IMG/VR virus record: IMGVR_UViG_3300045256_000653
Location: 14,356 to 78,355 of that record
Length of the DNA stretch: 64,000 nt
Reading direction: 5' to 3' (one strand)
Source: a virus
Both the position numbers and the translations under genes were made by a program. The notes beneath the pieces were generated by a model that worked only from the letters and a program-made list of their open reading frames with translations, made no database searches and was not told the origin of the DNA. Shown in pieces: positions 40,773 to 57,785 of the stretch. Within the stretch, counting starts at the first letter, position 1. Each line of letters starts with the position of its first letter.

Positions 40773-40934
40773 GATCGCGCCCAGCAACCCGTGAAGCACA
40801 CAAGCATCCCGCAAGGGATATGCAGGTTCGAATCCTGCTCCCCTCACTTCTACGAGGGGATGGCGGAATTGGAAGACGCACTGGTATAAGGGACCAGCCG
40901 AAAGGCAGACTGCTACACACCCTCGGGCGCGATC
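40773..40934 (+). ncRNA. Circularly permuted tRNA-Leu-like ncRNA (Y-RNA-like)
   Basis: Outer stem gatcgcgccc/gggcgcgatc; T arm (40822-40838) and acceptor 3' strand precede acceptor 5' strand, D arm and anticodon arm. Confidence 0.8.
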
Positions 40935-41661: not shown

Positions 41662-41779
41662 CCGGGCTGCTGTTCCGCAGCCCAACACACTTCCCACCTC
41701 GACTCTCTTCGGGGAGTCCGCACAGGGCGGTGTATTCACTTAATTCGGCGACGTGCGAAGCCGAGATCGGATCGGAACA

Positions 41780-43657
41780 ATGGCAAACGAGAATCTTGGA
41801 CCCGCCGAGCGGATCATCAACTCTCTGCTCGCGTACACGGACCACATGGTCCACAACCGCCCGGGCGTGGTCATCCCGGATCGCCGCTTCAACACCGGCG
41901 TGCGCTGGCAATTCGTCACGCACAAGGAGGAAGGCGGCCAAAAGGTCGTCTACGCCCTCACGAAGGTGGGCAAGAAGACGACGAGGACCCGCCTTGGTGT
42001 GATGCAGCCGGATCGTAGCGTCGTCGAGAACGGCGCGAAGATCGGCGATTACCGCCCGGCCGGATACAACCGCGAGGCGGCTGCCTGGATGTACCGACAG
42101 GTCGCCGAGGTGTGGAAGCTCGACAACGAGTTCGCGGCCCGCTGGGCCTCGTACGCGTTCAAGAACGACAAGAACCGCGACCTCAAGGTCATTCTCTGCG
42201 CGTTCATGCTCGTTCAGAGCCGCCAAGGTGATCCGGTCAAGGGCGCCGATGGCAAGGTCGAATTCTTCGACGACGACTTCCGTGAGGTCGGTGAGGCGAT
42301 GATCCTCAGCGACGAGAAGGGTGTCGAGCACTTCGACGCCAAGCTCCTCATCCGGGTGCGCGAGATCCTCTCGCTTCCGGAGATCGCGACCATCAACCGG
42401 GAACTCGGCTTCGGGCGCTCGACGCGCAAGGCGCCGCTCGGTCGTTGGGAGAAGGCGGTCACGCGGTGGCTCCAATACCGGGAGCGCAACCCGAAGATGC
42501 TCGAAGGTCTCGTCAAGGCGGGCCTTCGGAACAAGGTCGTGTCGCTCGCTCAGCAGGTCGGCTACAAGCCGGACTCGCCGAACTTCTACCGGATCCTCCG
42601 GTGGGAGCAAAACCAGGCGAAGGACGGTCACCGCCAGCTCGCGATCGGCGAGGCAGTCGCTGCCGGGGAAACCTGGGAGGGCCTCACCGAGGAGCAGGTC
42701 TGCCAGCGCATCATGAAGGACAAGCCGAAGTGGAACCGTCTCGCGGTCATGCTCCCCAAGAGCACCGGGTTGACGAGGGCCATCATGGCAGCGGCGATCG
42801 AGGCGGGTTCCGTCTCGAACAAGGAACTCATCATCCTTTCGCCGACGCTCGAAGAGCTTGGCCTTCTCCAAGTTCAGAACATCCGAGAGCGTTGGGAGCG
42901 TGCGCAGCGTGAGGCGGAAGACACTCGCGCGGCCAACGTCGCTCAACGCATGAAGTCGAAGGAGGCGCAAGAGAAGCTCCAAGAGGCAGCCGACGTCGCG
43001 GTCCAAAAGGCCGTGGCCGAGGTCGTCAAGGGGATGCTCGTCTACGTCTGCATCGACATCTCGGGATCGATGACGAACTCGATTCCGACCGCGAAGCAGT
43101 ACATCGCGCAGTTCCTCCAGGGTTTCCCCCCGGAGCAGCTCGTCGTGTGCGTCTTCAACACGGTCGGACGCATCGTCACCATCAAGAGCCCGTCGAAGGC
43201 GGGCGTGGAGAATGCGTTCGCCGGCATTCAGGCGGGTGGTGGCACCGATCACGGATCGGCCATTCGCACGATTGCCAAGCACCGCATGCCCACGGCGGAC
43301 GAGGATGTCGTGATGATCTTCATCGGTGACGGTGGAGAGATCAAGACGTTCGACTCCTCTCTGGCGGTCGATCACATCAAGCCGATGGCCTTCGGGTTCC
43401 TCCAGCTTCCTGGAGACAACTCGGGGTGCATCACCAACACGGCGGCTCGGCTGGGTATCCCGTGCTTCAACATCGACGAGGGAATCTTCGCGGACCCGTA
43501 TGCGATTCCGCGTACGCTCCGTGCCCTCATCGCTGCAACCCCGGTGGGCCAAGCTCCCCGGACGCAGGCAGCTCCGCGCGTGTCTCTCGTGGACACGATT
43601 CAAAAGACGGCGCTACTCAAGAAGCCGGCATGGGCAACCGTGGTCGCAACAGCGTAA
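41780..43657 (+). CDS. Ro60/Rsr-like TROVE-domain protein with C-terminal vWA domain
   Basis: Helical N-terminal part with ETWE motif; VCIDISGSM MIDAS, GGGTDHG, IFIGDG; flanked by tRNA-like ncRNAs. Confidence 0.7.
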   Translation: MANENLGPAERIINSLLAYTDHMVHNRPGVVIPDRRFNTGVRWQFVTHKEEGGQKVVYALTKVGKKTTRTRLGVMQPDRSVVENGAKIGDYRPAGYNREAAAWMYRQVAEVWKLDNEFAARWASYAFKNDKNRDLKVILCAFMLVQSRQGDPVKGADGKVEFFDDDFREVGEAMILSDEKGVEHFDAKLLIRVREILSLPEIATINRELGFGRSTRKAPLGRWEKAVTRWLQYRERNPKMLEGLVKAGLRNKVVSLAQQVGYKPDSPNFYRILRWEQNQAKDGHRQLAIGEAVAAGETWEGLTEEQVCQRIMKDKPKWNRLAVMLPKSTGLTRAIMAAAIEAGSVSNKELIILSPTLEELGLLQVQNIRERWERAQREAEDTRAANVAQRMKSKEAQEKLQEAADVAVQKAVAEVVKGMLVYVCIDISGSMTNSIPTAKQYIAQFLQGFPPEQLVVCVFNTVGRIVTIKSPSKAGVENAFAGIQAGGGTDHGSAIRTIAKHRMPTADEDVVMIFIGDGGEIKTFDSSLAVDHIKPMAFGFLQLPGDNSGCITNTAARLGIPCFNIDEGIFADPYAIPRTLRALIAATPVGQAPRTQAAPRVSLVDTIQKTALLKKPAWATVVATA

Positions 43658-43669
43658 GGAGCAAATCAG

Positions 43670-44641
43670 ATGGGATGGAGGGACCTACTTCAAACAGGCG
43701 ACGAGACCCTCGTCTCGCCGTGGGTTGGAGGCAGGTCCCTTCGTTCCGGTCCTCGCACCTGGACGATCGACGGCCGACTCCCTCGGGAGATGGGCTGGTA
43801 CTCGTTCAAGCTCAACGGACGCCGGGCCACACTAAATGGTTCGGCCGATCCGGCGAGCGAGGGTTTCAGAGACGTGGTGCGGGGTTACCTGGTCGGCGAC
43901 CGGCTCGTTCCGGACGGCGCTCGGGTCAACCCCGATCCCACCAAGATCGCAGAGGCGACGGAGACCGTTCTCCTCGTTGACCGTGGGCTCGATCGATTCG
44001 TGCGGATTGCGGCGGGACGCCTCTTTGATGAGGGCCCGCTCATCTTCATGAACCAGGAGATGCCCGTTGGCCCCGAGGATGCGGTCAGCAACGCCTACCT
44101 TCGCCGGCTTCCTTCAGTGAGTGACATCGCCGGAGTGACCCCGGCCCTCGAAGCCGCCTTCCGCATGGAAGTGTGGCAGCGAGAAGAAGCCGAACGTCGG
44201 CGCCTCGAATTGGAGCGCCAGCGTCGGGAAGAAGAGGAACGCAGGCAGCGTGAGGAACGGCGCGAGCAGATGGCGCGCCAGCTCGGAACCGGTACCGGAC
44301 GGCGGGAGATGGCCCTCGTGGACTTCGCCGAAGCCGCTCGTGCTGCGCTCCGGGTTGGAGGTGCCGAGTATCTCGACCACCGGGCATCGTACCGGCCGGG
44401 CGAGATGGTCGTCACCTTCCGGATGCTCAACCGAGCCTTCATGTGCACGTGCGACGAGAAGACGCTTCGCATCATCGATGCTGGCGTTTGCCTCGGGCAC
44501 GGGGACGAGAGAGGGGACACGCGGTTCACTCTCGAATCCTTGCCGGCGGTGATCAACGAAGCTCACCGCACGCATCGATTGGTCGTTCTTCGTCACGTCG
44601 GCGATCAGGACGAACCTGATTGGAGGAACGATGACGATTGA
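43670..44641 (+). CDS. Hypothetical protein, candidate E2-like conjugating component
   Basis: Coiled coil then IIDAGVCL (resembles the G-x-CL catalytic Cys context of E2s); operon context. Confidence 0.45.
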   Translation: MGWRDLLQTGDETLVSPWVGGRSLRSGPRTWTIDGRLPREMGWYSFKLNGRRATLNGSADPASEGFRDVVRGYLVGDRLVPDGARVNPDPTKIAEATETVLLVDRGLDRFVRIAAGRLFDEGPLIFMNQEMPVGPEDAVSNAYLRRLPSVSDIAGVTPALEAAFRMEVWQREEAERRRLELERQRREEEERRQREERREQMARQLGTGTGRREMALVDFAEAARAALRVGGAEYLDHRASYRPGEMVVTFRMLNRAFMCTCDEKTLRIIDAGVCLGHGDERGDTRFTLESLPAVINEAHRTHRLVVLRHVGDQDEPDWRNDDD

Positions 44642-45038
44642 AGCTGGAGTTGTTGTGGGGCGCGACGGCGAGGAGGCTGTCTACTGGCATCTTCCTCCCA
44701 ACAGGAACGTCGTCGCGCTCCCCGACAGCCGAGATCTTTGGGACGTCTTCTGGGAGAACAGGGATCGCATCTCTGGGTTCGCGCACAGCCATCCCGGGCT
44801 CGGCGTTCCCGGCCCCTCCTGGGAAGACCTCACGACATTCGCCGCCGTCGAAGGCGGTCTGGGTCGTCGCCTCAAGTGGTGGATCACGAGCATGAATGCC
44901 GTCTCGGTCCTCACGTGGAAGGGCCCGGGCAAGTACGACTACGAGCTGACCGTGCTCGACAAGGAACCGTCATGGATTCCGGAGCTACGGCGTCTCTCGC
45001 AGAACGAATCAACACCAAACGAGGAGCAGATACGATGA
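44631..45038 (+). CDS. JAB/MPN+ (JAMM) metalloprotease
   Basis: N-terminal E; HSHP...PSWED JAMM motif. Confidence 0.88.
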   Translation: MTIEAGVVVGRDGEEAVYWHLPPNRNVVALPDSRDLWDVFWENRDRISGFAHSHPGLGVPGPSWEDLTTFAAVEGGLGRRLKWWITSMNAVSVLTWKGPGKYDYELTVLDKEPSWIPELRRLSQNESTPNEEQIR

Positions 45039-45310
45039 CGATTCAGGAAAACGAGGCCCAGGTGAACATCACCTGGAACGGAACGAACTTCGAGCTTCCG
45101 GACCCGGTTCTCTTCGAGGCCGCAGACGGAGACCTCAAGCAGTGGGCGGCGGAAGCGATTCGCACGGGCTCGATCCCGGGCTTCGCGGCCGATCCGGCCG
45201 TGGACCTCCGGAATCACATCGTGGACCGCTTCCCGGCGCCGGCTCAGGCCGCGCCCGGCCAGCGTACCCACAACCTCATCCAGATTCGCCCGAAGACGGC
45301 ATTCGGATGA
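45035..45310 (+). CDS. Putative ubiquitin-like protein (91 aa)
   Basis: Between JAB and E1, ATGA-coupled on both sides; beta-grasp-like pattern; ends RPKTAFG. Confidence 0.6.
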   Translation: MTIQENEAQVNITWNGTNFELPDPVLFEAADGDLKQWAAEAIRTGSIPGFAADPAVDLRNHIVDRFPAPAQAAPGQRTHNLIQIRPKTAFG

Positions 45311-45882
45311 AGACCGTGGTCATCGTCGGAGTCGGGGCGCTGGGTTCACACCTCGTGCCCTTGCTCCGGAACGTGGACGCCTCCGTCAAGGTGATCGACT
45401 TCGATCGCGTCGAGGCGAAGAACGTCCTCAGCCAGTTTCACGGCAAGCCGAATGTCGGGAAGCCCAAGGTGCTCTCTCTTCAGAGCACGATGAACTTCCT
45501 CTTCGGCAAGAAGATCGAGACCGTTCCCCACAAGCTCGTGGAGAACAACGCCACCGAGCTTCTCGGCAAGGCTGATCTCGTCATCGACTGCCTCGACAAC
45601 GGGGCAGCTCGCAGGATCGTCCAGGGCTTCGTTCGCAAGAACAACACCCCCTGTTTGCATGGGGCTGTCGATGCGAACGGCAGCTTCGGACGCATCGTTT
45701 GGGACGAGACGTTCGCAATCGACGACGAAGACAAGGCCGGTGCGCCCACCTGCGAAAACGGCGAGCACCTCACGTTCTTGTCGATCGTCGCTTCCTACCT
45801 GGCGCACGCGGCCAGGGAATTTCTCGTGAAGAATCGCAAGCTCGGGTATCAGGTGAGCCCGGGTGGGACTATTCTAACGTGA
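45307..45882 (+). CDS. ThiF/E1-like adenylyltransferase
   Basis: VGVGALGS, IDFDRVEAKN..Q, KPKV, DCLDN..AR; APTCE candidate catalytic Cys. Confidence 0.9.
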   Translation: MKTVVIVGVGALGSHLVPLLRNVDASVKVIDFDRVEAKNVLSQFHGKPNVGKPKVLSLQSTMNFLFGKKIETVPHKLVENNATELLGKADLVIDCLDNGAARRIVQGFVRKNNTPCLHGAVDANGSFGRIVWDETFAIDDEDKAGAPTCENGEHLTFLSIVASYLAHAAREFLVKNRKLGYQVSPGGTILT

Positions 45883-45943
45883 CCGCGCTTTTTTCTTAGC
45901 ACCACGACCGGCGTCGGTGTAAACCAACGCCGGAAGTAACTCT

Positions 45944-46084
45944 GAGGGATATTGGCCGATGGCAGGCCGCGTGACGGTAACTCACGTGCATACGCACAAT
46001 CAGGATTGCACTCTCGGACCTCGCAAGGGGCCCAGCTCCTCGTAGTCCTTACAAGCTTTCTAGGTTCGAATCCTAGGTCCCTCA
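45944..46084 (+). ncRNA. tRNA-like ncRNA with conserved module in the variable loop (GTA at anticodon position)
   Basis: gagggat/gtccctc acceptor; ~75-nt insert; ctaggttcgaatcctag T arm. Confidence 0.78.
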
Positions 46085-46087
46085 CTA

Positions 46088-46255
46088 CTTCGCGCCCAGC
46101 AAAACCCGAAAGACCTTACAAGCAAAGTATGCAGGTTCGAATCCTGCTGAGCCCACCAACGGAGGGTCAAACCTCCGGGGCCCATCGTCTAACGGATAGG
46201 ACACTCGTTATTCAAACGAGCAATCGCAAACAGGTTTCTCAACTCGGGCGCGAAG
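46088..46255 (+). ncRNA. Circularly permuted tRNA-Glu-like ncRNA (Y-RNA-like)
   Basis: cttcgcgccc/gggcgcgaag outer stem; T arm, tgagccc-ACCA, linker hairpin, gggccca, Glu-type D arm, TTC loop. Confidence 0.82.
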
Positions 46256-46307
46256 GAATTTTTTTCTGTCAGACCCATCTCGGGTCGTCGTCTCTGGAAA
46301 CATCAAT

Positions 46308-46440
46308 GCCGATCAAGGGCCGTGGGGCCCACCTCTTTGTTAAAGAGCAACAAATCCTGCATTCACCCCTCGGACCTCGAAAGTGGTCCAGCCCCAACGA
46401 GTGCATACAAGCTTGCCAGGTTCGACTCCTGGGATCGGCG
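46308..46440 (+). ncRNA. tRNA-like ncRNA with module insert (GTT at anticodon position)
   Basis: gccgatc/gatcggc acceptor; insert; ccaggttcgactcctgg. Confidence 0.8.
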
Positions 46441-46470
46441 CTGAGGCACCCAGCCTCCCGTAGTGCTCAC

Positions 46471-46546
46471 ACGCGAATAGCTCACTCTGGTAGAGCATCT
46501 GTTTCGAACACAGAAGGTCACGGGTTCAAATCCCGTTTCGTAACCA
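46471..46546 (+). tRNA. Atypical tRNA (CGA loop, short variable region, weak acceptor stem)
   Basis: tctgt-ttCGAac-acaga; only 5 acceptor pairs. Confidence 0.6.
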
Positions 46547-46580
46547 ACCAGCATTACAATCTCGGGTGTCTCTAATTTTT

Positions 46581-46708
46581 GCGGGTCAGGGCCGTGGGGC
46601 CCACTTTCCTCTCCAAGGAACAAACCAGCATGCGCCCTCGGGCCTCGAAAGGGGCTCAGCTCTCAAGCGTGCTCACAAGCTCGTCAGGTTCGACTCCTGA
46701 GACCCGCT
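46581..46708 (+). ncRNA. tRNA-like ncRNA with module insert (TCC at anticodon position)
   Basis: gcgggtc/gacccgc acceptor; insert; tcaggttcgactcctga. Confidence 0.8.
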
Positions 46709-46771
46709 CTAACCCGTCATCGAGGCCGGCTGTCCCGCAAGGGCCTACCGACCTCGAGGCGCGTAAATTAT

Positions 46772-46918
46772 GGGGATGTTACAGAGGGATGGACCCTCGC
46801 CTGCCCACGAAGCAGGAGCGAAAGCTCAACCCAGGATCAAACCTCGGATCTCTTCACCGGGATCCAGCCCCCTCTCGGTCCTTACAAGCCCTCGGTTCGA
46901 ATCCGAGACATCCCCCCA
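46772..46918 (+). ncRNA. tRNA-like ncRNA with module insert (ACG at anticodon position)
   Basis: ggggatgt/acatcccc acceptor; insert; ctcggttcgaatccgag. Confidence 0.8.
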
Positions 46919-46969
46919 TCTTCTTCCCTCGCAGCTAGCCACCGCGAGGTGATCGTTTCGCACCGTTAT

Positions 46970-47045
46970 GGTGGGCGTAGCCTAGTGGTAAAGGCGGCGG
47001 GTTGTGGCCCCGCAGACGCGAGTTCAATTCTCGTCGCTCACCCCA
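46970..47045 (+). tRNA. tRNA-His(GTG)
   Basis: Cloverleaf with G-1, CCA. Confidence 0.92.
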
Positions 47046-47071
47046 ATTTTTCTCCGGTGTAGGCGCCGCGC

Positions 47072-47434
47072 ATGCCGGAGAATTGCCCGAAATGCGGATT
47101 CTATCTTGGCGTCGAGCCAAACGTGGAGCTGGAGTGCGACACGCTCTATCAGCTCGTCACCAACGTGATCCGTCACGTCCGCATGACCGGCAGCAAGATC
47201 GTCTCCTCGGATGATCCGATGCGTCTTCGCATCGGTTTCGAGACCCTTCTTCTGACCGGTCCTCACGCCGCTCGGTGGTCGATCGGTATCGCTAAAGTGC
47301 GGGAGGTCAACTTGGCAGCGGCCGAAAGTGCGCAGCTCGCAGCTTACATCCCCTTGCTTGCGACGGCCCAAGGAAGGCAACAGATCGCCGACCTTTGGAG
47401 TCTCGGTCAAGAGCCCTTTCTTGTTCGTGAATGA
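47072..47434 (+). CDS. Hypothetical protein
   Basis: CGGTGTA upstream; CPKC. Confidence 0.65.
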   Translation: MPENCPKCGFYLGVEPNVELECDTLYQLVTNVIRHVRMTGSKIVSSDDPMRLRIGFETLLLTGPHAARWSIGIAKVREVNLAAAESAQLAAYIPLLATAQGRQQIADLWSLGQEPFLVRE

Positions 47435-57423: not shown

Positions 57424-57769
57424 GGGGCTGACCAAGTTTCGACGGAGAGCAAGAAGGATAGTTTGCGGGAAACGGCGCTCGACCCGTTCAATCGAGCATC
57501 GCATCAGTCGCCAACGACAATGCATATGCAATCACGGCCAAGGCCGCATGATTGCCGATTCTTAGCTGGGTCGTCCTAGCGGCAAAAGAATCGCCAACCA
57601 ACCAGGGCTGGTCGAAGAGCCGGGCTACCGGGCACGAGACGAGAGGAACAGGATAGCTAGGACGCAGCCGAATCTGCGCACCCAGTCGCCGGGGATACGG
57701 CGTCCAGCCCGTGGATGAAGACGTTCGGACGGCTTTTCGGACCCGGGGGCAGTACCCGGCAGCTCCACC
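57424..57769 (+). ncRNA. ssrA: tmRNA; tag ANDNAYAITAKAA* at 57510-57551
   Basis: ggggctg..ttcgac 5' end, cagctcc-a 3' end with G3:U70, resume-codon ORF ending AA-stop. Confidence 0.93.
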
Positions 57770-57785
57770 CCAAAATGAGATGAAC

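What the first reader, a model, noticed from the sequence alone, without database searches (positions are those of the whole stretch)
46088..46255. Circularly permuted tRNA-Glu-like RNA with internal ACCA: same molecule opened at a different point
Seen: order is CGCGC-CCAGC..stem..TACAAGC, T arm, tgagccc-ACCA, hairpin, gggccca, Glu-type D arm, TTC loop, CAA..stem..CTCGG-GCGCG. This is the module of the neighbouring RNAs, but with 5' and 3' ends placed in the CTCGG/CCAG helix (Y-RNA topology). Inference: RNase P and 3' trimming of the linker would give a two-piece chargeable tRNA-like RNA, analogous to two-piece tmRNA. Both permutations side by side suggest a snapshot of Y-RNA origin from tRNA.
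Basis: partly seen in the sequence, partly recalled or inferred. Interest (0 to 1): 0.85.

Follow-up and report, generated by a model that had tools for sequence, protein, structure and literature searches.

The report
Inside-out tRNA mimic: phage Y RNA
This 168-base stretch of a huge phage encodes a small RNA built like a tRNA turned inside out; it belongs to a conserved, undescribed RNA family that sits beside a very divergent Ro60-like gene, so it is most likely a new variant of the known bacterial and phage "Y RNA" tRNA mimics rather than a new principle.

Summary
At 46088-46255 a 12-bp outer stem with one bulged C encloses, in order: T arm, acceptor 3' strand plus ACCA, a hairpin, acceptor 5' strand, a Glu-like D arm and a closed anticodon-like hairpin. 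After in-silico un-permutation ARAGORN calls it tRNA-Glu(UUC).

It is not a one-off. A covariance model finds a paralogue at 40774-40933 and about 50 distinct members in 35 of 63 related huge-phage loci. About 90% of cells are paired, and 32-34 of 38 pairs show compensatory changes.

The 634-aa gene 2.4 kb upstream (41753-43657) is seen by Pfam only as VWA. It folds as TROVE+VWA (Z 13.4 to human and Xenopus Ro60; next unrelated fold 6.3).

My best reading is a YrlA-type Y RNA partnered with this phage Ro60-like protein.

The "two-piece" idea already has a precedent: M. smegmatis YrlA is cut by RNase P and receives CCA. Here it is supported indirectly, because NCCA follows the acceptor strand in 18 of 32 members with loops of 7 nt or more. 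It has not been shown.

The "snapshot of origin" reading is not supported, because the unpermuted-permuted pair is conserved across divergent phages.

Differences from YrlA: the ends exit through the variable region, an anticodon arm is retained, and the handle motif differs.

The scan has noted similar phage Y-like RNAs on other DNA.

The parts
46088..46099 (+). P1 outer stem, 5' strand (ends in CCAG)
   Evidence: Pairs with 46243-46255 in the MFE fold. Compensatory changes at 9 of 11 pairs in the family.
46108..46116 (+). P2 inner stem, 5' strand
   Evidence: Pairs with 46232-46240. Covaries in the family: 5-6 of 6 pairs have changes on both sides.
46117..46123 (+). Single-stranded TACAAGC handle motif before the T arm
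   Evidence: A-C-A-x-G-C is invariant in the 26-sequence permuted alignment, and ACA-G is invariant in the 40-sequence unpermuted alignment. ACAAGC followed by GGTTCGA occurs 4 times in the window against 0.02 expected.
46131..46147 (+). T arm (5 bp stem, TTCGAAT loop)
   Evidence: ARAGORN cloverleaf after un-permutation. 100% of cells paired in the family.
46148..46158 (+). Acceptor 3' strand (46148-46154), discriminator A and CCA (46155-46158)
   Evidence: Pairs with 46178-46184. All 7 pairs covary in the family. NCCA is found in 18 of 32 family members with loops of 7 nt or more.
46160..46177 (+). Linker hairpin closing the acceptor stem (6 bp, 6-nt loop)
   Evidence: RNAfold gives -11.1 kcal/mol for the loop alone. 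15 of the 16 members with loops of 21-38 nt (this RNA included) fold a hairpin of different sequence 2-5 nt after the acceptor 3' strand, in most of them directly after the first four loop bases.
46178..46184 (+). Acceptor 5' strand. The predicted RNase P site lies between 46177 and 46178.
   Evidence: The cleavage site is inferred by analogy with M. smegmatis YrlA (PMC4201824).
46187..46202 (+). D arm, Glu-like, with the GG of the D loop
   Evidence: 81% and 78% identity of acceptor 5' strand plus D arm to the window's tRNA-Glu genes. G18 and G19 are nearly invariant in the family.
46204..46220 (+). Closed anticodon-like hairpin (5 bp, loop UAUUCAA)
   Evidence: The stem covaries at 5 of 5 pairs, while the loop sequence is not conserved.
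46232..46240 (+). P2 inner stem, 3' strand
46243..46255 (+). P1 outer stem, 3' strand, with invariant CUC (C46245 bulged)
   Evidence: C-T-C is invariant in both RNA alignments. MFE fold.
46259..46265 (+). Run of seven T, the likely transcript end
   Evidence: Read directly from the sequence. TTTT lies within 14 nt downstream in 18 of 50 permuted members, against 3 of 76 unpermuted members and a 2.6% background.
40774..40933 (+). Paralogue of the same permuted family (Leu-like D arm, 8-nt acceptor loop, the same P1 core sequence)
   Evidence: Model R1 scores it at 104.3 bits, E 5e-23. It and the finding are the only strong hits in the window.
45944..46083 (+). Unpermuted tRNA-like neighbour N1, carrying the handle as a hairpin in the variable region. 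It ends 4 nt before P1 of the finding.
   Evidence: Sister copies lie at 46308-46439, 46581-46707 and 46773-46914.
41753..43657 (+). Gene for the divergent Ro60-like protein (TROVE-like helical ring domain plus VWA with a DxSxS MIDAS motif), the presumed protein partner
   Evidence: Pfam reports VWA_2 only. For the full model, the Foldseek top 8 hits are all Ro60/TROVE. The N-terminal 425 aa give VIA-align Z 13.4 to Ro60, against 6.3 for the next unrelated fold. D435, S437 and S439 are invariant.

Best explanation
The element is the gene of a small non-coding RNA of the Y-RNA / YrlA kind. It is a tRNA mimic whose chain is circularly permuted, so the acceptor stem is closed by a loop.

The 5' and 3' ends pair into a terminal stem that carries a conserved handle. 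The handle consists of a helix with a bulged C (CCA opposite CU[C]GG), stem P2, and single-stranded YACAAGC.

Inferred biogenesis: the RNA is transcribed together with the unpermuted tRNA-like RNA just upstream. It is released at its 5' end by that RNA's 3' processing, and it ends at the T-run after the outer stem.

Inferred function: the handle docks the RNA on the phage's own divergent Ro60-like ring protein, encoded 2.4 kb upstream. The tRNA-shaped body is then presented to tRNA-binding factors or tethers an effector, as Y RNAs do with PNPase.

Inferred, at about 40-45%: in this member and in others with long acceptor loops that begin with NCCA, RNase P cuts between 46177 and 46178 and the linker is trimmed. 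That would give a two-piece RNA with a free CCA end, held together by the acceptor, P1 and P2 helices, as shown for M. smegmatis YrlA.
For: Structure and family:
- The seed alignment of 26 sequences has 89.9% of cells paired and 32 of 38 pairs with double changes. Slid controls give 30-44%.
- A set of 30 model-found members, about 21 of them outside the seed, has 90.2% paired and 34 of 38 pairs with double changes.
- There are 55 hits of 56 bits or more, clearly separated from tandem-tRNA artefacts at 48 bits or less.
- U8, G18, G19 and the T loop are conserved.

Protein partner:
- The 634-aa protein has TROVE+VWA architecture by fold and a conserved MIDAS motif.
- It has more than 1,600 homologues on 200-660 kb phage contigs.
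- No canonical TROVE gene was found in five relatives that are 92-100% complete.

Linkage:
- In all five of those genomes, the best genome-wide RNA match lies within about 5 kb of the Ro60-like gene on the same strand.
- GenBank record KX853510.1 also carries an unannotated member (94.9 bits) 8.6 kb downstream of its homologue.

Processing:
- The acceptor stem is 7 bp, and NCCA is enriched: 18 of 32 loops of 7 nt or more, 0 of 13 shorter loops, about 0.5 expected.
- The 3'-end trinucleotide spectrum (CCA > CTA > CCG/CTG) matches the phages' true tRNAs.
- Relatives encode CCA-adding-type nucleotidyltransferases and RtcB.
- T-runs are enriched after P1.

Precedents: PMC4201824, 10.1101/312249 and PMC12135203 (phage phiLo Ro60 binds Yrl RNAs and host PNPase).
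Against: - No binding, expression or end-mapping data exist. No RNA run was available.
- The TROVE assignment rests on a predicted fold of a helical-repeat domain, where Z around 13 is near the caution zone. Foldseek on that domain alone gave no hit at E <= 0.001. No sequence method sees TROVE.
- The YrlA Ro60 motif GNCGAAN0-1G is not conserved in this family.
- The bulged C sits on the 3' strand, opposite to animal Y RNAs.
- The Rfam YrlA model does not match the element.
- Some family members lie far from the Ro60-like gene: three of four in one genome, and one 22 kb away in another.
- For the two-piece step, the hairpin abuts position +1 with no single-stranded leader (other long-loop members have 5-9 nt). 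The acceptor stem has a C.A mismatch, and a structured 3' trailer would hinder exonucleolytic trimming.
Confidence: 0.7

Rival explanations
1. It is a tRNA-shaped processing and termination 'punctuation' element of the phage tRNA operon. The tRNA-like body recruits RNase P/Z to cut the polycistronic transcript, and the outer stem plus T-run terminates it. There is no dedicated protein partner, and the nearness to the Ro60-like gene only reflects that gene's position inside the tRNA array.
For: The element lies inside a 51-tRNA array. It starts 4 nt after the upstream tRNA-like RNA and is followed by seven T. In G002 three of the four family members, and in G004 one of three, lie 22 kb or more from the Ro60-like gene.
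Against: Invariant non-tRNA motifs (CUC bulge, ACANGC) and a covarying P2 are not needed for punctuation. The best genome-wide match lies within about 5 kb of the Ro60-like gene in 5 of 5 genomes of 450-620 kb. Ordinary tRNAs in the array manage without such elements.
Confidence: 0.12
2. It is a tRNA mimic that works with a different partner. It could be a decoy or sponge for a host tRNA-targeting nuclease or modification enzyme. Alternatively it could be a substrate or cofactor of the JAB / small protein ending in FG / ThiF-E1 genes that lie between the Ro60-like gene and the RNAs.
For: The RNAs follow the ThiF-like gene directly, both here and in KX853510.1, where the Ro60-like gene is 8.6 kb away. 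The tRNA bodies differ between members (Glu-like here, Leu-like at 40774), as if different tRNAs were being imitated.
Against: The anticodon loops, the usual target of anticodon nucleases, are not conserved or tRNA-like. The handle rather than the body is invariant. The E2 and Ubl assignments are unverified: Pfam found nothing.
Confidence: 0.12
3. It is a permuted pre-tRNA gene, as in the red alga Cyanidioschyzon merolae. The P1-P2 stem would be excised and the ends ligated (for example by RtcB), and RNase P/Z would then open the acceptor loop, yielding a decoding tRNA-Glu(UUC).
For: The un-permuted body is called tRNA-Glu(ttc), with ACCA and a Glu-like D arm. Relatives encode RtcB.
Against: The loop has A33. 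Orthologues have unrelated 'anticodons'. The same P2/bulge/ACAAGC module is conserved in unpermuted neighbours, where no excision would be needed. There is no bulge-helix-bulge motif. The window already has a normal tRNA-Glu(UUC).
Confidence: 0.04
4. It is a decayed remnant of tandem tRNA genes with no function of its own.
For: Tandem tRNAs give weak matches of about 30 bits to the same model.
Against: There is a gap of 50-60 bits between true members and tandem artefacts. Compensatory changes occur in all six helices across about 50 members. The acceptor strands pair with each other, not with flanking genes.
Confidence: 0.01

Closest known systems
YrlA, the tRNA-mimicking Y RNA of bacterial and mycobacteriophage Ro60/Rsr (Rfam RF02553; Chen et al. 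2014, PMC4201824; structure in Wang et al. 2018, 10.1101/312249)
   Same: The order is T arm, closed acceptor stem, D arm, described in print as resembling a circularly permuted tRNA. The ends pair into a terminal stem. The nucleotides for the D/T elbow are conserved. It is encoded within a few kb of a Ro60-type gene on the same strand, and several Y-like RNAs occur per locus.
   Different: In YrlA the ends leave through the anticodon stem and there is no anticodon hairpin. Here a closed anticodon arm is kept and the ends leave through the variable region. The GNCGAAN0-1G motif is not conserved; the conserved features are a CCA/CU[C]GG bulged helix and YACANGC. The Rfam model does not detect the element. 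The protein partner is not recognisable as TROVE by sequence.
Mycobacterium smegmatis YrlA, a two-piece form (PMC4201824)
   Same: [quoted passage not shown] It is cut by RNase P in vitro and in vivo, and the 5' piece gains CCA. Both halves stay bound to Rsr.
   Different: There only the first C is encoded and CA is added. Here the full ACCA is encoded, followed by a hairpin linker. Processing of the phage RNA is untested.
Yrl1/Yrl2 of Thermus phage phiLo with phage Ro60 (PMC12135203; PDB 9KOP, 9L5Y)
   Same: A phage-encoded Ro60 homologue with phage-encoded Y-like RNAs next to the gene. These structures are among the top fold matches of the window's protein.
   Different: The phiLo RNAs were picked by a CGAA motif and are not described as tRNA-like. 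The phiLo Ro60 is a recognisable Ro60.
Circularly permuted tRNA genes of Cyanidioschyzon merolae and some other algae and archaea (cited in 10.1101/312249)
   Same: The 3' half is encoded upstream of the 5' half, and the acceptor stem is initially closed by a linker that RNase P/Z removes.
   Different: Those mature into ordinary decoding tRNAs through a circular intermediate made at a bulge-helix-bulge motif. Here the terminal stem is a conserved functional module, and the anticodon loop is not conserved.
Two-piece (permuted) tmRNA of alpha-proteobacteria and some cyanobacteria (my own knowledge, not tested here)
   Same: A permuted gene gives a tRNA-like domain assembled from two RNA chains after an intervening segment is excised.
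   Different: tmRNA carries a tag reading frame, has G3.U70 alanine identity and works with SmpB. None of these is present here. The window has its own one-piece tmRNA at 57424-57770.

Membership tests
YrlA (Rfam RF02553) | Score at or above the Rfam gathering threshold (69 bits) with the curated covariance model | tested here: not met
   No YrlA match at gathering anywhere in the window. With E <= 10 on 45800-47100, the only YrlA row is 19.1 bits at 46389-46530, which is a T arm of one RNA plus the D arm of the next. Nothing matches 46088-46255.
YrlA (Rfam RF02553) | tRNA-like module in the order T arm, closed acceptor stem-loop, D arm, with conserved elbow nucleotides | tested here: met
YrlA (Rfam RF02553) | 5' and 3' ends joined to the tRNA-like module through the anticodon-stem equivalent | tested here: not met
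   A closed 5-bp anticodon-like hairpin follows the D arm. P2 and P1 leave between that hairpin and the T arm, which is the variable-arm position. The Rfam consensus structure is shown.
YrlA (Rfam RF02553) | GNCGAAN0-1G motif near the 5' end (the presumed Ro60 contact) | tested here: not met
   This RNA has CCCGAAAG at 46105-46112, a near match. The motif is absent from most of the 26 aligned members. The family's invariant motifs are CUC and ACA-GC.
YrlA (Rfam RF02553) | Encoded within about 4 kb of a Ro60 orthologue on the same strand, and the best match in the genome | tested here: met
   The element is 2.4 kb downstream of the Ro60-like gene. In 5 of 5 near-complete relatives the best genome-wide match lies within about 5 kb on the same strand. 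Caveat: the protein is Ro60-like by predicted fold only.
Ro60 / Rsr (TROVE + VWA) for the 634-aa protein | TROVE domain recognisable by sequence profile (PF05731) | tested here: not met
   PDB sequence searches also found nothing.
Ro60 / Rsr (TROVE + VWA) for the 634-aa protein | HEAT-repeat ring fold followed by a VWA domain with a MIDAS motif | tested here: met
   The N-terminal model gives Z 13.4 (288-293 residues aligned, rmsd 4.3-4.5) to human and Xenopus Ro60, 10.1 to D. radiodurans Rsr and 9.2-9.6 to phage phiLo Ro60, against 6.3 for the next fold. For the full model, the Foldseek top 8 are all Ro60/TROVE over 510-560 columns. The VWA domain gives Z about 15. DxSxS is invariant. This is a predicted structure (pLDDT 77-80), with an extra beta-rich insert at residues 38-101.
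Ro60 / Rsr (TROVE + VWA) for the 634-aa protein | Binds Y RNA through a bulged helix | not testable with these tools
   No RNA-protein prediction or assay was available.
Canonical tRNA (Rfam RF00005 / ARAGORN) | Colinear cloverleaf with a 7-nt anticodon loop and U33 | tested here: not met
   The element is not called in its native order. It is called only after in-silico permutation and removal of the insert, and then with A33.
Permuted pre-tRNA genes (C. merolae type) | Matures to a decoding tRNA, so the anticodon loop is conserved and functional | tested here: not met
   The loop sequences of orthologues are unrelated. Maturation itself is not testable here.

The most novel reading that the evidence does not exclude
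About half of this phage RNA family, including this member, is opened by RNase P and trimmed to a free, encoded CCA end. That end is then aminoacylated, here by GluRS through the Glu-type augmented D helix and the UUC triplet. The Ro60-like ring protein would thus carry a two-piece, charged tRNA mimic. That would make it a Ro60-tethered aminoacyl donor, or a decoy for EF-Tu, ribosomes or tRNA-sensing defence systems. The interchangeable tRNA bodies (Glu-like, Leu-like) mounted on one portable handle in three topologies would then mimic different tRNA species.
Probability: 0.1. Interest if true: 0.85.

Novelty: new variant of a known kind. Interest (0 to 1): 0.6.

Why it matters
Y RNAs that mimic tRNA are known. 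Their partners, the purpose of the mimicry and their evolutionary origin are still open questions.

- This huge-phage clade, known only from metagenomes, offers a large natural series: about 50 permuted and at least 76 unpermuted members in 63 loci, and more than 1,600 homologues of the protein.
- One conserved handle is attached to tRNA bodies in three different chain topologies, next to a Ro60-like protein too divergent for sequence annotation.
- The series shows which parts are under selection: the handle, the elbow and the acceptor stem, but not the anticodon loop.
- It extends Ro60-like ribonucleoproteins to a major group of huge phages, where the gene is currently labelled 'VWA' or 'hypothetical'.
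- The family contains closed-loop members and members with NCCA plus a linker. Comparing them provides a built-in test of whether opening by RNase P, so far seen only in M. smegmatis, is a regular part of Y-RNA biology.
- The side-by-side permuted and unpermuted forms make the tandem-dimer model for the origin of YrlA directly examinable.

Tried and rejected
Searches that found nothing useful:
- Rfam at gathering and at E <= 10: no family covers the element. The weak YrlA and Plastid-ycf2 rows are artefacts.
- blastn of 45880-47060 against GenBank phages: only fragments of ordinary tRNAs.
- Pfam TROVE in the window's record and in five relatives: none.
- phmmer and hmmsearch of the protein or its profile against PDB sequences: only weak VWA hits.
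- Pfam at E <= 10 on 30 N-terminal domains: no TROVE and no DUF2828.
- PHROGs: nothing for the protein.
- Foldseek with the N-terminal domain alone: no hit at E <= 0.001, although Ro60 rows had the highest probabilities.
- The VIA second look with the full-length model was swamped by VWA domains.

Signal scans:
- The sigma-70 promoter scan found none.
- The terminator scan cannot see P1 plus the T-run, because the stem encloses 143 nt.

Expression: no RNA holder was listed among public runs. The holders were DNA from hot-spring, microbial-mat, soil and wetland metagenomes, so I did not use read laying.

Tools not used or not available:
- Complex prediction was not used, because it has no RNA chains.

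Readings considered and rejected:
- The GNCGAA motif as a family feature (see the membership test).
- The UUC triplet as a conserved anticodon.
- CGAAAG and CGCAAG in the neighbours as Ro60 motifs. They are GNRA tetraloops closing hairpins.
- My first loose regular expressions for the handle mostly returned ordinary tRNAs.

Full report
**Context.** The window is part of a 78-kb IMG/VR virus record estimated to be 17% complete. It carries 51 tRNA genes and a tmRNA, all on the + strand. The same DNA occurs in hot-spring and microbial-mat metagenomes, and no RNA run was available.

**The observation.** I read 45300-47200 and located each landmark.
- A 12-bp outer stem (46088-46099 with 46243-46255, C46245 bulged) and an inner stem (46108-46116 with 46232-46240) enclose the rest.
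- Inside, in order: TACAAGC, a canonical T arm, a 7-nt acceptor 3' strand followed by ACCA, a 6-bp hairpin, the matching acceptor 5' strand, a D arm, and a closed 5-bp hairpin with loop UAUUCAA.
- Seven T follow the outer stem.
- RNAfold recovers this fold at -62 kcal/mol, z = -4.5.
- When I rejoined the halves in tRNA order and removed the variable-region insert, ARAGORN called tRNA-Glu(ttc). In its native order, neither ARAGORN nor the Rfam tRNA model sees the element.
The ends leave the tRNA body at the variable-arm position while the anticodon arm stays closed, and position 33 is A.

**It is a family, not a curiosity.** A scan for T arms outside ordinary tRNAs showed two recurrent classes in the window and in 63 related loci.
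- In one class, the acceptor 3' strand pairs with a strand about 100 nt upstream. This is normal tRNA topology, and the four neighbours belong here.
- In the other, it pairs with a strand 4-38 nt downstream. This is the permuted class.
- I aligned 26 permuted elements with defined outer stems. All six helices covary: 89.9% of cells paired and 32 of 38 pairs with changes on both sides, against 30-44% pairing when partners are slid.
- The seed was chosen by requiring pairing in P1, the T stem and the acceptor stem, so those three helices are partly circular. P2, the D stem and the anticodon-like stem were not selected for, and they covary as well.
- A covariance model (R1) finds only two strong hits in the window: the finding at 106.7 bits and a paralogue at 40774-40933 at 104.3 bits. 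Tandem tRNAs score about 30 bits.
- Across the loci it finds 55 hits of 56 bits or more, in 35 of 63 loci.
- A second alignment of 30 hits, about 21 of them new, gives 90.2% pairing and 34 of 38 compensated pairs.
- The invariant positions outside the tRNA elbow are the C-U-C of the bulged helix and A-C-A-x-G-C before the T arm.
- The anticodon-like loop is not conserved, so the UUC of this member is incidental at the family level. Its acceptor 5' strand plus D arm is nevertheless closest to the window's two tRNA-Glu genes (81% and 78%).

**The neighbours.** I collected 76 distinct unpermuted elements. RNAalifold on 40 of them predicts an acceptor stem, a D-like hairpin, P2, a hairpin that starts right after CUC, and the T arm. 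24 of its 25 predicted pairs are compensated.
- CUC and ACA-G are invariant there too. The handle is therefore shared, with the bulged helix closed by a loop in these RNAs and opened at that loop in the permuted ones.
- The tRNA bodies are not the same: the neighbours have long-stemmed, tiny-looped D arms.
- Fifteen unpermuted elements are followed 4-12 nt later by a permuted one.
- T-runs follow 36% of permuted members but only 4% of unpermuted ones.
- This suggests a conserved transcription unit: unpermuted RNA, then permuted RNA, then terminator.
- A third arrangement lies at 46443-46572, where a tRNA-like body sits between the two strands of the handle.

**The protein.** The 634-aa ORF at 41753-43657 is annotated by Pfam only as VWA.
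- It has more than 1,600 homologues at about 60% identity, many on 200-660 kb contigs. I fetched 63 IMG/VR loci.
- An AlphaFold model from 32 sequences gave Ro60/TROVE entries as the eight best Foldseek hits, aligned over 510-560 columns.
- I modelled the N-terminal 425 residues separately (pLDDT 79.7, pTM 0.67). They gave nothing significant with Foldseek.
- In VIA-align the same model gave Z 13.4, 13.4 and 13.0 to human and Xenopus Ro60, 10.1 to D. radiodurans Rsr and 9.2-9.6 to phage phiLo Ro60. The next fold scored 6.3.
- With the C-terminal VWA domain (Z about 15) and an invariant DxSxS, this is the Ro60 architecture.
- No profile method detects TROVE. Five relatives that are 92-100% complete have no canonical TROVE gene.
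- In each of those five genomes, the best RNA match genome-wide lies within about 5 kb of this gene on the same strand.
- The single GenBank relative, KX853510.1, labels the gene 'conserved hypothetical' and has an unannotated family member 8.6 kb downstream, just after a ThiF-like gene.

**Comparison with what is known.**
- Chen et al. (PMC4201824) defined YrlA by a T arm, closed acceptor stem and D arm, a GNCGAAN0-1G motif and proximity to Ro60. They showed that M. smegmatis YrlA, the one with a 7-bp acceptor stem, is cut by RNase P and gains CCA, leaving two Rsr-bound halves.
- Wang et al. (10.1101/312249) state that most YrlAs 'resemble circularly permuted tRNAs', and they discuss a tandem-tRNA origin.
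- Phage Ro60 with phage Y-like RNAs and host PNPase has been reconstituted for Thermus phage phiLo (PMC12135203).
- What differs here: the junction topology (variable-region exit, anticodon arm retained), the handle motifs, the failure of the Rfam model, the sequence-unrecognisable Ro60-like partner, and the systematic co-occurrence of unpermuted, permuted and acceptor-mounted versions.

**The two-piece question.** Among 45 distinct members, acceptor loops fall into three length classes:
- 4-6 nt: 13 members;
- 7-15 nt: 16 members, mostly NCCA followed by A/U-rich sequence;
- 21-38 nt: 16 members. In 15 of them, this RNA included, the first few loop bases are followed by a hairpin; all but this RNA then have a 5-9 nt single-stranded linker.

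CCA occupies the three positions after the discriminator in 18 of 32 loops of 7 nt or more and in none of the 13 shorter loops, where about 0.5 is expected by chance. The trinucleotide spectrum at that site (CCA, then CTA, CCG, CTG) mirrors that of the phages' genuine tRNAs and of the unpermuted RNAs. This argues that the site is, or recently was, treated as a tRNA 3' end. Relatives encode CCA-adding-type enzymes and RtcB.

Against cleavage of this particular member: the hairpin abuts +1 without a single-stranded leader, and there is a C.A mismatch in the acceptor stem. I put the two-piece outcome at about 40-45%, and aminoacylation at about 10%.

**Origin.** A permuted form arises trivially from a head-to-tail dimer of the unpermuted form, read from the middle of one variable-arm hairpin to the middle of the next. 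This is the Sim-Wolin dimer model with a different junction. However, the a-b pair is conserved across phages with 50-65% identical partner proteins, and this RNA's body is unrelated to its upstream neighbour's. The pair is therefore an old, maintained arrangement, not a snapshot.

**Verdict.** The element is a new variant of the YrlA-type Y RNA, in a large and undescribed huge-phage family. Earlier notes of this scan on the same genome reached similar readings, and similar phage Y-like RNAs were reported by the scan on other DNA. I tested the fold, family, linkage and structure claims independently here.

Noticed in passing
window 40774-40933: A second permuted family member (104.3 bits) lies right after tRNA-Ile and 0.8 kb upstream of the Ro60-like gene. 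It has a Leu-like D arm, an extra small hairpin before the T arm and an 8-nt acceptor loop without CCA. The core of its outer stem has the same sequence as in the finding, although the tRNA bodies differ.
   Followed up: partly
window 46443-46572: A third topology: a tRNA-like cloverleaf that ARAGORN calls 'Ser-cga' (short variable loop, weak acceptor stem), mounted between GGCACCCAGC and CTCGGGTGTC of the same handle and followed by a T-run. The R1 model gives it only 28 bits.
   Followed up: partly
window 43670-45882: Between the Ro60-like gene and the RNAs lie four co-directional genes with overlapping or abutting ends. They are a 323-aa protein with no Pfam hit, a Prok-JAB protein (E 5e-5), a 91-aa protein ending in FG whose stop overlaps the next start, and a ThiF/E1-like protein (E 6e-24). 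This looks like a ubiquitin-like conjugation set, but the E2 and Ubl assignments are unverified. A ThiF-like gene also directly precedes the family member in KX853510.1.
   Followed up: partly
L064:19526-19700 (KX853510.1, about 175493-175667, minus strand): The only GenBank phage record with the Ro60-like gene ('Virus Rctr197k', from an enrichment culture) has an unannotated 94.9-bit member of the RNA family in an intergenic gap. Its Ro60-like gene is annotated only as 'similar to conserved hypothetical protein'.
   Followed up: yes
window 46116-46126 and alignment A3 columns 28-38: The consensus next to the 5' side of the stem, (C)UUACAAGCA(A), recalls from memory the 11-nt motif of the Dictyostelium Class I RNAs, which also sits beside the 5' strand of a terminal stem. 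Earlier notes of the scan raised the same lead. The paper I read (PMC7919456) does not spell out the motif in its text, and Rfam gave no such hit, so this remains an untested resemblance.
   Followed up: partly
window 45915 and elsewhere: A hairpin containing CGGTGTA lies about 25 nt upstream of the first tRNA-like RNA. No sigma-70-like promoter was found in 45800-47100, so transcription of the RNA cluster may use a phage-specific signal.
   Followed up: no
five related genomes reached through loci L007, L042, L037, L020 and L025: These huge phages (450-620 kb) encode RtcB ligases (4 of 5, some with two copies) and CCA-adding/poly(A)-polymerase-family enzymes (4 of 5), all far from the Ro60-like locus. 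One genome has three further family members more than 300 kb from the Ro60-like gene.
   Followed up: partly
all loci, 3' ends of ordinary tRNAs: Only about 36% of the phages' tRNA genes encode CCA after the discriminator. CTA, CTG and CCG are the next most common, so most tRNAs and tRNA-like RNAs of this clade must depend on 3' trimming and a CCA-adding enzyme.
   Followed up: partly
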